From Escherichia coli (lineage in GTDB: Bacteria > Pseudomonadota > Gammaproteobacteria > Enterobacterales > Enterobacteriaceae), in assembly GCF_003334765.1 (NCBI RefSeq), contig NZ_QOWT01000026.1: DNA of 57,965 nt; one strand, 5' to 3'. Position numbers: made by a program. This document shows, piece by piece, positions 1 through 3,000 of this stretch. The number at the start of each line of letters is the position of its first letter. The first letter of the stretch is position 1.

Positions 1-3000
1 ATGACTCATGATGAACCCTGTTCCATGGCTCCAGATGACAAACATGATCTCATATCAGGGACTTGTTCGCACCTTCCCTAAAGCATTCATCGTGTTGCCC
101 GTATTCATACCCGTGTGACTTTGACAACGGTACTCCTTAGAAACTCTCTTCGGACTGTTGCCGAAATGTTTGCGGAACGCATAAATAAAATAAGATGTAC
201 TGGCATAACCACATTGTTCGGCAATTTTATTGACTGAACCTTCTACGCGTATCAAATTTTTTGCGTGCTGCATTCTTGCATCTAAAAGAATCTGTGAGAA
301 TGTCGTTTGCTCTTGCTTAAGTTTTTTCTTCAACAGGCTTTCACTGATGTACAGGCAGTCACAAATATCTTTCAGCTTCCATGGGTGCGCCAGCTTCATG
401 TTGACAATATTTCTCACTTTCCCAGAAACGGATAGCACACCGTTAGTTAATAGTGTAATGAAACCTTTGCATGCGGCAAAAATAGACAGGCAAGAAAAAA
501 GCAAAAGTTCTGAAAAATTATGATGATTGCGTTCTTCCGAGTTGAGATAAGCAATCATTTCATTAAGCAATCCAGTCGGTACATTTGAAGCACGTAAAAA
601 CTTCGCAGGAACAGGCACCGTCACTGTCTGGATGTTAGTGCATTGTAGATATTTTTTAATGGTATTTTCAGTAAATCCGATCTCTTTAAAATGCCGCTCA
701 TAAGGTTCAAAATGCGTACGAACAGCGTTATCTACCATCAGGATCTCGCCGTCAGAGAAGGCGTAATCTTTATCTAAAATGTTAGCGTTGAAGGCATGAT
801 GAATAAATATAACAGAACAAACGAGCGACATTTTATCTCCTTAAAACAATAAAGTTTTTATCGATACTTTTTTAACATTTCATATTTATAATTTGCTGTT
901 TGTTTTCAGCCTTGCAAACTATTGATAATGAAATGTGTAAGATCTCTTGCAATGCGACCCATTTCTGAAATACTCAGCTGATCAATTGCCGAAAAAATGG
1001 CTATCAACGTAAGTGTCAGTAATAAGACAACCACAATTGCAGACATGATTTCTTTATAGTTGTCTCTTTGCGTGATTTTGTTTTTCACTGTGGTCGCATG
1101 CATTTCAAATATGTTTATTTAGCGGATAACGTTAAAAATCGTTAATCAGTATGCTTAATATAACAGGCTGGAGAAAAGAGGAAATAGGACTGGTGCTTCA
1201 GTACTGAGCGGAGTTTCTTACAGCTGTAGGCAGAAGTTTATATCTTATAGTATGTAGTTTAATTTAATCCATGTGAGCAAATTGCGAAATAATAGTCAAT
1301 GAGGAATTCTTCTGCTGTGCGGATGACAGCAGAAGAAATGAGAAGAGGCATTAATTTGATGGTTCTAATTCAACCGGAATACTTTTATAGCCAGGAATGC
1401 CACTTAATGGATCGTGGTTATCAAGTGTTAGCATGTGATTCGATTCTGGAAAATAGGTCACCAGTGAGCGGTCAGCCATAGGGTAAATGACCACTTTTAA
1501 TCTATCCATGCGGCGTGAGCTGCGCTTACCGTCTGGCGTAAGCGCAATAAGATTAACTCTTTCGCCGTTTTTTACACGGCAAATTTTAGCTTGTTTAGCA
1601 CTCATAAAGACCACATCTCGTTGACCGAATACCCCTCGATAGCGATCATCCATACCATAAATCGTCGTGTTGTACTGATCGTGGCTGCGTACTGTCGCCA
1701 TGACCAGCTTACTGTTAAACGCTGAAGAGGGATCTTCTAACAGCCCTTTGCTGGTAATGAAATTAGCCTTACCTGACGGCGTCATCCAGCGCCTTTCAGC
1801 AGCTGCATTTATCAGGTGAAAACCACCGGGATGACGGATGCGCTGGTTATAGTCGGCGAACTCTGGCAGCACAGCTTCAATGTCATTGCGAATGCGATCA
1901 TAATCTTCCACCAGATACTCCCAGGCTACCACGCTCTGGGGTAGTGCTGCCTGCGCGATTCCCGCGACCACTGCACACTCTGATTTCAGCATTACACCGG
2001 CGGGTTTTAACACGCCACGCGAGGCATGAATCATCGACATTGAATCCTCAACGGTTACCGCCTGCGCACCGTTTTTTTGCATGTCAATCTCGCTACGTCC
2101 CAGGACCGGCAGAATATAGCTATGCCGTGCGGTCAACAGATGAGAGCGGTTAAGCTTAGTGGCTACGTGTACCGCCAAATCTAATTGCGTTAACGGTACA
2201 GCGCTCGCTTCCCGATCTGGCATTGCCAGCGCAAAATTGCCCCCCATGCAGATCAATGCTCGAGCCTGCCCCGTACATATTGCTTGCATGCTGGCAATTG
2301 CAGCATGTCCAGGTGCATGAGGTGGGGTGAAGCCATAGCGCTCACCCAGACGAGCCAGAAACTCTGCAGACGGTTTCTCGGTGATACCGACGGTTCGGTC
2401 GCCCTGTACATTAGAGTGTCCACGTAGTGGGCAGATACCCGCACCAGGCTTGCCAATGTTACCTTTCATCAACAGCAGATTGACCAGTTGCTGTACGTTC
2501 TGGGTACCATGTTCGTGCTGAGTGATCCCCATTCCGTAACAGATAATGGTGCGTTCGGCAGCGGCATATGCGTCAGCCAGTTCGGCGATTTGTGTCTGAC
2601 TTAGTCCAGAAATACGTTCGATATCTTTCCACTCGGAATTGAGAACGTCACGGCGTAGCTCGTCAAAGCCGACGGTATGCGTTTGAATAAACTCGTCATC
2701 AAGCAATGAAGGCCGACCTGCGGCGCTTGCAGCATCATCGCGCTCAATTAACAGGCGCATCATCCCCTTGAGCAACGCCATATCGCCACCAATGCGCACG
2801 TTATAGTAGGCACTGGCCAACTGAGTCTCAGAGTTCGTCAGCATTTCAAACGGGTTTTGCGGTGCGGTAAATCGCTCCAGGCCACGTTCCTGTAGAGGAT
2901 TGATGGCGATCATTTTCGCTCCCCGTTTCACTAAAGCGCGCAACGAAGTCAGCATGCGAGGGTGGTTTGTACCAGGGTTATGCCCAATGCAAATGACTAA

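What the first reader, a model, noticed from the sequence alone, without database searches (positions are those of the whole stretch)
1..84. IS5 end sits two codons before the ydeO stop codon
Nt 1-77 are the reverse complement of an IS5 terminus, followed by CTAA (IS5 target). The ydeO frame on the minus strand runs across this junction, so the last residues of this YdeO (GKVRTSP after ...TMNAL) are encoded by IS5 sequence. K-12 YdeO is 253 aa as I recall, which fits an insertion replacing only the final two residues. IS5 insertions are known to alter expression of neighbouring H-NS-silenced genes, so both the C-terminus and the 3' context of the safA-ydeO operon differ here.
Basis: partly seen in the sequence, partly recalled or inferred. 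Interest (0 to 1): 0.6.

Follow-up and report, generated by a model that had tools for sequence, protein, structure and literature searches.

The report
IS5 inserted in ydeO's last codons
A copy of the mobile element IS5 sits in the last two codons of the E. coli acid-response regulator gene ydeO; this is a real but rare and probably near-neutral natural variant, at a spot that IS5-type elements have hit repeatedly in other strains.

Summary
Window nt 1-77 match the transposase-proximal (IRL) end of IS5 at 77 of 77 bases. They abut the native CTAA at nt 78-81. The minus-strand ydeO frame runs 23 nt into IS5, giving a 258-aa YdeO ending ...NAL-GKVRTSP, where K-12 has 253 aa ending ...NALAI.

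Three points are new.
- The window is a whole short-read contig. Its last 77 nt are the exact reverse complement of its first 77 nt, so both ends stop one k-mer into an IS5 IRL. The rest of the element and its far flank are not visible. A 57.8-kb native segment (ydeO to ynfU, containing dif and TerC) is bracketed by inverted IS5 copies.
- The same CTAA carries IS5 or ISKpn26, in both orientations and with a CTAA duplication, in 6 of 5,426 complete genomes. None has this exact allele. That suggests a local hot spot.
- ins5A is co-oriented with ydeO, and the insertion lies upstream of ydeO's terminator. EvgA-driven safA-ydeO transcription should therefore read into the transposase gene, as published for nmpC::IS5. 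This is inferred, not shown.

The altered tail lies 20 residues beyond the DNA-binding domain, so YdeO is probably functional. This is an ordinary IS polymorphism with modest added interest.

The parts
1..77 (-). Transposase-proximal (IRL) end of IS5. IS5 nt 1-77 read on the minus strand. ins5A start codon ATG is at window nt 9-7.
   Evidence: 77/77 identity to annotated IS5 in L001, against 58/77 to ISKpn26. Sequence read.
62..77 (-). 16-bp terminal inverted repeat GGAAGGTGCGAACAAG of IS5
   Evidence: The same repeat abuts the same CTAA in L001, L002 and L005.
78..81 (.). CTAA target tetranucleotide (TTAG on the ydeO strand: Leu251 codon TTA plus the first base of codon 252)
   Evidence: Native in K-12 at L004 2501-2504. 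Duplicated on both sides of the IS in complete genomes carrying an insertion at this site.
55..831 (-). ydeO::IS5 fusion ORF, 258 aa. Residues 1-251 are YdeO. Residues 252-258 (GKVRTSP) and the stop codon (nt 57-55) are encoded by IS5.
   Evidence: Pfam HTH_18 covers residues 157-231. PDB homologues align only up to about residue 231.
906..1103 (-). safA (65 aa), the gene upstream of ydeO in the EvgA-activated operon
   Evidence: ORF. Annotated as safA in collinear genomes. Pfam SafA.
1351..3630 (-). ydeP (759 aa), acid-resistance oxidoreductase upstream of safA
57885..57888 (.). TTAG target of a second IS5 junction, between ynfU and cspB in the Qin prophage remnant
   Evidence: Native sequence in NCTC9087 runs straight through ...CAGCAGTTAGCTTCTG....
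57889..57965 (+). Second IS5 IRL end, 77 nt, the exact reverse complement of window nt 1-77
   Evidence: The terminal inverted identity is 81 nt: 77 nt of IS5 plus the 4-nt target.

Best explanation
An IS5 element has transposed into the canonical CTAA/TTAG target that overlaps codons 251-252 of ydeO in a wild phylogroup-A-like E. coli.

Shown:
- The IS5 IRL tip abuts this tetranucleotide.
- The ydeO frame continues 23 nt into the terminal repeat and stops at an IS5 TGA. This swaps the last two residues (Ala-Ile) for Gly-Lys-Val-Arg-Thr-Ser-Pro.
- The swap lies 20 residues beyond the end of the AraC-type DNA-binding domain.
- ins5A lies on the same strand as ydeO and starts 45 nt after the new stop codon.
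- The window is a complete short-read contig that breaks exactly 77 nt into IS5 at both ends.

Inferred:
- The element is a full 1,195-bp IS5 with a CTAA duplication and the ydeN spacer on its far side. This is what every complete genome with an IS5-family element at this site shows.
- YdeO remains active.
- The insertion separates ydeO from its intrinsic terminator, which lies about 50 nt downstream of the native stop. The EvgA-activated, H-NS-silenced safA-ydeO transcript would then run on through ins5A to the displaced terminator.
- The site is a local IS5-family hot spot rather than a selected regulatory change, and the allele is rare and probably near neutral.
For: IS5 identity is 77/77 in the window and 121/121 in L006. 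The CTAA is native in K-12. The tail is GKVRTSP against K-12 AI. HTH_18 ends at residue 231, and solved homologues (GadX, Rns, CsvR, ToxT) align no further than residues 230-234.

The exact protein occurs on 6-9 contigs, all ending in IS5. The longest is 57,965 nt, which is the window length. The first and last 77 nt are exact reverse complements. Window 78-57888 aligns without gaps to NCTC9087 with 6 mismatches.

Complete genomes carry IS5 (3 pig isolates) or ISKpn26 (WEM25, B27, MB30) at the same CTAA. Each is a 1,195/1,196-bp insert with a CTAA duplication and ydeN beyond it.

A terminator-like hairpin followed by a T-run lies at L004 2445-2423(-), about 50 nt after the ydeO stop. No terminator-like site was found on the ins5A sense strand inside IS5, and the junction RNA has no unusual structure (z = +1.16).

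PMC11677980 reports that IS5's own ins5A promoter is very weak. The copy co-oriented inside nmpC is transcribed from PnmpC as a fusion mRNA across a CTAA junction, and it supplies most transposition, acting in cis. EvgA activates ydeP-safA-ydeO (PMC11052181). ydeO is strongly de-repressed in an hns mutant (PMC7582179).
Against: Only 77 nt of IS5 are visible, so the element's completeness, its duplication and its far flank are unseen in this genome. Because both contig ends are IS5 IRL ends in inverted orientation, the junction could belong to a rearranged chromosome.

No expression, protein-activity or transposition data exist for this allele. The terminator and read-through claims rest on consensus scans and on analogy with nmpC::IS5.

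The hot-spot claim rests on few events: 4 of 5 independent IS5-family insertions near the ydeO 3' end fall on one of 7 CTAA/TTAG sites, roughly p = 0.01 (my own calculation). Selection could give the same pattern. The site is not in the most AT-rich part of the spacer (42-46% GC against 25-32% GC about 100-400 bp away), so the published 'SIDD hot seat' model is not obviously met.
Confidence: 0.8

Rival explanations
1. The junction is one end of a larger IS5-mediated rearrangement rather than a simple insertion. The 57.8-kb ydeO-ynfU segment, which carries dif and TerC, is bracketed by two inverted IS5 copies. It could be inverted relative to the chromosome, either by IS5-IS5 recombination or by intramolecular transposition. 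Alternatively the IS5 next to ydeO could join to DNA other than the ydeN spacer.
For: Both contig ends are the same IS5 IRL end in inverted orientation, each next to a CTAA/TTAG target. The segment between them is native and collinear and contains dif and TerC. Two simple insertions and an inversion give identical junction sequences, so the contig cannot tell them apart.
Against: Every complete genome with an IS5-family element at this CTAA shows a simple insertion with a target duplication and ydeN on the other side. Two independent insertions fully explain the data without any rearrangement.
Confidence: 0.12
2. The insertion is an adaptive regulatory or protein change. Strains keep IS5-family elements at this exact site because uncoupling ydeO from its 3' flank (terminator, AT-rich H-NS-binding spacer), or altering the YdeO C-terminus, changes acid-resistance regulation to their benefit.
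For: The same site is occupied by two different elements in both orientations, and all give a tail starting GKVR. ydeO is H-NS-silenced (PMC7582179). IS insertions are a classic way of changing expression of H-NS-silenced loci (PMC5493358).
Against: All four alleles are rare: 2-22 contigs each, and 6 of 5,426 complete genomes in total. There is no sign of spread. The documented IS5 activations are upstream of promoters, not at 3' ends. The altered residues lie outside the conserved fold. Recurrence in both orientations is equally expected from target-site preference.
Confidence: 0.12
3. The junction is an assembly artefact: a chimeric contig end created by collapsing a repeat.
For: The junction lies within 77 nt of a contig end in a multi-copy repeat.
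Against: The IS tip abuts a canonical target at base-pair precision. The same junction is recovered in independent datasets and assemblers, with 22-121 nt of IS5 held. Long-read complete genomes show IS5-family elements at the identical position.
Confidence: 0.02

Closest known systems
nmpC::IS5 of E. coli K-12 (IS5 nested in and co-oriented with nmpC; PMC11677980)
   Same: IS5 is inserted at a CTAA inside a host gene, with ins5A on the same strand as that gene. No terminator lies between the host promoter and ins5A. In K-12 this arrangement gives a host-gene/ins5A fusion mRNA and makes that copy the main, cis-acting source of transposition.
   Different: Here the host promoter is the EvgA-activated, H-NS-silenced safA-ydeO promoter, so any read-through would be conditional on acid or EvgS signalling. 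Only two residues of the host protein are lost. No transcript or transposition data exist for this allele.
IS5 activation of silent operons (bglGFB, glpFK, fucAO, flhDC; PMC5493358)
   Same: The same element and the same CTAA / Py-T-A-Pu target type. The insertion is in an H-NS-controlled region. The same tetranucleotide is used recurrently, as at glpFK.
   Different: Those insertions lie upstream of the promoter and act by relieving repression. This one is at the 3' end of the last gene of the operon. The site is not in the most AT-rich stretch.
IS5 or ISKpn26 at the same ydeO CTAA in complete genomes (Res13-Lact pig isolates, WEM25, B27, MB30)
   Same: Identical insertion point and CTAA duplication. 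YdeO tails begin GKVR because both terminal repeats share their first 12 nt.
   Different: They differ in element (ISKpn26, 91% identical to IS5) and/or orientation. The resulting proteins are 263 aa (IS5 reversed), 266 aa (ISKpn26 reversed) and 258 aa ending ...TSS (ISKpn26, same orientation). None of the 5,426 complete genomes has IS5 in the window's orientation at this site.

Membership tests
IS5 (IS5 family) insertion | 16-bp terminal inverted repeat GGAAGGTGCGAACAAG at the junction, with interior sequence matching IS5 rather than relatives | tested here: met
   77/77 to IS5 against 58/77 to ISKpn26. The related contig L006 gives 121/121 against 99/121.
IS5 (IS5 family) insertion | Insertion at a Py-T-A-Pu (CTAA/TTAG) target with a 4-bp direct duplication | tested here: inconclusive
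   The CTAA target abuts the IS tip and is native in K-12. The second copy of the duplication lies beyond the contig end. The duplication is seen in complete genomes with insertions at this site.
IS5 (IS5 family) insertion | Complete 1,195-bp element encoding the DDE transposase Ins5A | not testable with these tools
   The window holds only IS5 nt 1-77, which include 3 ins5A codons. The rest collapsed out of the contig.
YdeO (AraC/XylS-family acid-response activator) | Orthology to K-12 YdeO, a C-terminal double helix-turn-helix domain, and safA-ydeP synteny | tested here: met
   Residues 1-251 are identical to K-12 except P147L. HTH_18 covers 157-231. safA and ydeP lie upstream.
Host-promoter-driven IS5 copy (nmpC::IS5 type) | ins5A co-oriented with the upstream host gene, with no terminator in between | tested here: met
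   ins5A ATG (nt 9-7) is on the ydeO strand, 45 nt after the new stop. The native terminator lies downstream of the insertion point. The junction RNA is unstructured.
Host-promoter-driven IS5 copy (nmpC::IS5 type) | Detectable host-gene/ins5A fusion mRNA, and transposition that depends on the host promoter | not testable with these tools
   Requires RT-PCR or 5'RACE and transposition assays, as in PMC11677980.
IS5-mediated activation of a silenced operon (bgl/glpFK type) | Insertion upstream of the target promoter that relieves repression | tested here: not met
   The insertion is at the 3' end of ydeO, the last gene of the operon.

The most novel reading that the evidence does not exclude
IS5 sits co-oriented just inside the 3' end of ydeO and upstream of its terminator. 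This copy's transposase gene may therefore be transcribed from the EvgS/EvgA-activated, H-NS-silenced safA-ydeO promoter. That would make it an acid-inducible 'master copy' that couples IS5 transposition bursts to acid stress, as PnmpC drives the nmpC copy in K-12. The ydeO-terminal CTAA may also be a true IS5-family hot spot in natural populations.
Probability: 0.25. Interest if true: 0.5.

Novelty: new member of a known kind. Interest (0 to 1): 0.3.

Why it matters
In itself this is one more IS5 polymorphism. It matters in three modest ways.

- It is a caution for annotation. PGAP names the 258, 263 and 266-aa IS-fused proteins as ordinary YdeO.
- The same tetranucleotide is hit by IS5 and ISKpn26 in both orientations in unrelated strains. 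This gives a natural hot spot, not selected in the laboratory, on which models of IS5 target choice could be tested.
- The architecture puts a transposase gene behind a stress-inducible promoter. This offers a direct natural test of the 2024 finding that flanking host promoters, not the element's own promoter, drive IS5 activity.

The bracketing of dif and TerC by inverted IS5 copies also flags a potentially invertible terminus segment.

Tried and rejected
- Literature search for ydeO plus IS5 found four papers, none describing this insertion. A second search (ydeO / insertion sequence / ydeN) failed for lack of a server slot.
- Rfam scan of the window and the K-12 locus found no RNA family at the ydeO 3' end or in the ydeO-ydeN spacer. 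The only hits were STnc560, IS009 and the cspA thermoregulator elsewhere.
- Folding the ydeO-IS5 junction RNA showed no structure beyond chance (z = +1.16). There is therefore no evidence for a terminator or for sequestration of the ins5A start.
- The idea that the element is ISKpn26 was rejected: 58/77 against 77/77.
- The idea that the window comes from K-12 was rejected. K-12 matches the ydeO flank, but the best full-length matches are wild strains with an intact ECSE_1600-family autotransporter.
- The AT-richness ('SIDD hot seat') explanation for the hot spot is not obviously supported by the simple GC profile. A proper SIDD calculation was not done.
- I could not recover the ydeN-side junction from the same assemblies with the available look-ups.

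Full report
**1. The observation**

Window nt 1-77 read, on the minus strand, GGAAGGTGCGAACAAGTCCCTGATATGAGATC...ATGAGTCAT. This matches the first 77 nt of an element annotated by RefSeq as IS5 in E. coli Res13-Lact-ER02-39 (L001 1322-1398) at 77/77. The relative ISKpn26, which is 91% identical to IS5 overall, matches at only 58/77.

The stretch begins with the 16-bp terminal repeat and ends with the first three codons of the transposase gene ins5A. It is therefore the transposase-proximal (IRL) end. The IS tip (nt 77) abuts CTAA (nt 78-81).

In K-12 the same region reads ...CAAATAGCTAAAGCATTC... without interruption (L004 2501-2504). On the ydeO strand this is ...AAT GCT TTA GCT ATT TGA, that is ...N A L A I stop, giving 253 aa.

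In the window the frame reads ...AAT GCT TTA G|GG AAG GTG CGA ACA AGT CCC TGA. This gives a 258-aa protein ending NAL-GKVRTSP. Reference YdeO does not end in GKVRTSP.

**2. The junction is real, but the window shows only its edge**

The exact 258-aa protein is in public collections (WP_114403777.1 and others). It is found on 6-9 contigs, and the longest is 57,965 nt, which is the length of this window. The window is therefore a whole contig.

Its last 77 nt are the exact reverse complement of its first 77 nt. The inverted identity runs 81 nt because the second IS5 end is also flanked by the same tetranucleotide (TTAG on the plus strand). Exactly 77 nt of a multi-copy repeat at both ends is what a de Bruijn assembler with k = 77 leaves. 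This is my inference from how such assemblers work.

Three consequences follow.
- The rest of the IS5, its target duplication and its far flank are not observable here.
- At least two IS5 copies are involved, since each copy has only one IRL.
- The native segment between them is bracketed by inverted IS5 copies. That segment is window 78-57888 and aligns without gaps to strain NCTC9087 with 6 mismatches.

The four further contigs carrying the allele (L006-L009) come from other datasets. They hold 22-121 nt of IS5 and differ from the window by 0-3 substitutions in 3.7-6.8 kb. A chimeric artefact is therefore excluded.

**3. The same tetranucleotide is hit repeatedly**

Two junction queries were run against 5,426 complete E. 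coli genomes. No genome has IS5 in the window's orientation at this site. Six have an IS5-family element at exactly this CTAA.
- Three near-identical pig isolates carry IS5 in the opposite orientation (L001).
- WEM25 carries ISKpn26 in the opposite orientation (L005).
- B27 and MB30 carry ISKpn26 in the window's orientation (L002).

In each of the three loci read (L001, L002, L005) the insert is 1,195 or 1,196 bp. It is flanked by a CTAA duplication, and the ydeN spacer continues on the far side.

One further genome, WP7-S17-ESBL-01, has an IS5 at a different CTAA about 300 bp downstream in the spacer. That copy has a 1-nt deletion.

Counting the window, four of five independent events fall on one of seven CTAA/TTAG sites in the roughly 470 bp examined. 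Conditioning on the window's site, my rough binomial estimate is p of about 0.01. This suggests a local hot spot, though the numbers are small and selection is not excluded.

All alleles are rare, at 2-22 contigs each. The site lies in 42-46% GC DNA at the edge of the spacer, not in its most AT-rich core of 25-32% GC. The published idea that IS5 prefers CTAA in strongly destabilised AT-rich DNA (PMC5493358) is thus not obviously met. A true SIDD calculation was not done.

**4. Consequences for YdeO**

Pfam places the AraC-type HTH_18 domain at residues 157-231. Solved homologues (GadX, Rns, CsvR, ToxT, XylR) align no further than residues 230-234.

The replaced residues, 252-253, and the added five residues lie at the end of a 22-residue tail outside the conserved fold. 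I infer that DNA binding and activation are retained. This has not been tested.

**5. Consequences for transcription**

In K-12 a GC-rich hairpin followed by a T-run lies about 50 nt after the ydeO stop (L004 2445-2423, minus strand). The insertion point is upstream of it, so a complete IS5 would move the terminator about 1.2 kb away.

In the window's orientation ins5A is on the ydeO strand. Its ATG is 45 nt after the new stop codon. No terminator-like site was found on the ins5A sense strand of IS5, and the junction RNA has no unusual structure.

The safA-ydeO operon is activated by EvgA (PMC11052181). ydeO is strongly de-repressed without H-NS (PMC7582179).

A 2024 study showed that IS5's own ins5A promoter is very weak. 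The K-12 copy nested in and co-oriented with nmpC is transcribed from PnmpC as a fusion mRNA across a CTAA junction. That copy accounts for most transposition, in proportion to promoter strength and acting in cis (PMC11677980).

By analogy, this ydeO copy should be transcribed whenever the EvgA-dependent promoter fires. This is an inference and is the most interesting testable reading.

The classic IS5 'activation' mechanism does not apply directly, because those insertions lie upstream of promoters.

**6. Alternatives**

The two inverted IS5 ends leave open that the 57.8-kb segment is inverted, or that IS5 joins ydeO to other DNA. Two simple insertions and an inversion give the same junctions. 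Every complete genome read with an element at this site shows a simple insertion, so I rate a rearrangement at about 0.12.

An adaptive regulatory role is possible but has no support beyond recurrence. An assembly artefact is excluded by the independent datasets.

**7. Verdict**

The finding is a correct and precise observation of a natural IS5 insertion polymorphism. It is a new member of a known kind. The added points of interest are the recurrent use of one tetranucleotide by two IS5-family elements, the transposase gene placed behind an acid-inducible promoter, and the bracketing of a dif/TerC-containing segment by inverted IS5 copies.

No publication describing the allele was found in the one literature search that completed. 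Interest is about 0.3.

Noticed in passing
window 57885-57965: A second IS5 IRL end (77 nt, the exact reverse complement of nt 1-77) sits after a native TTAG between ynfU and cspB in the Qin prophage remnant. No complete genome in the collection has this exact junction. Two strains (Z226-5 and Z226-6) have an IS5 about 54 bp away.
   Followed up: partly
window 1-77 and 57889-57965: The window is a whole contig of 57,965 nt, the longest contig on record for this YdeO allele. Both ends stop exactly 77 nt into the repeat, which is the signature of a k = 77 de Bruijn assembly. Contig ends here carry positional information but hide the rest of the IS.
   Followed up: yes
window 7894-7921 (-) and about 26300-26322 (+): The chromosome dimer-resolution site dif (GGTGCGCATAATGTATATTATGTTAAAT) and the replication terminator TerC (ATATAGGATGTTGTAACTAATAT) both lie inside the segment bracketed by the inverted IS5 copies. 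Recombination between those copies would invert TerC and move dif by about 42 kb.
   Followed up: no
L001 / L002 / L005 (complete genomes), site equivalent to window 78-81: [quoted passage not shown] Nothing flags that their C-termini are encoded by IS5 or ISKpn26 terminal repeats.
   Followed up: partly
L003 1384-2577 (E. coli WP7-S17-ESBL-01): An IS5 copy 1,194 bp long (1-nt deletion, annotated with a 'programmed frameshift') sits at a different CTAA of the ydeO-ydeN spacer (K-12 L004 2193-2196). It is co-oriented with ydeO but lies beyond its terminator.
   Followed up: partly
window about 392-390 (ydeO codon 147): YdeO has Leu at residue 147 where K-12 MG1655 has Pro. Which allele is the common one was not determined.
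   Followed up: no
window about 9809-15229 (-): By collinearity with NCTC9087 this region encodes an intact 5.4-kb ECSE_1600-family autotransporter, the locus I recall as a pseudogene (yneO/ydeK) in K-12. This supports a non-K-12 wild background.
   Followed up: no
window 39878-40091 (-), 51486-51684 (-), 55193-55578 (-): Rfam hits above gathering score: STnc560 Hfq-binding sRNA, IS009, and a cspA-type thermoregulator 5'UTR (Qin cold-shock gene region).
   Followed up: no
L004 2482-2504 (K-12), equivalent to the window 78-81 flank: The hot CTAA is the right arm of a short inverted repeat, TTAGC-N13-GCTAA, that spans the ydeO stop codon. It may be coincidence and was not tested as a target-choice determinant.
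   Followed up: no
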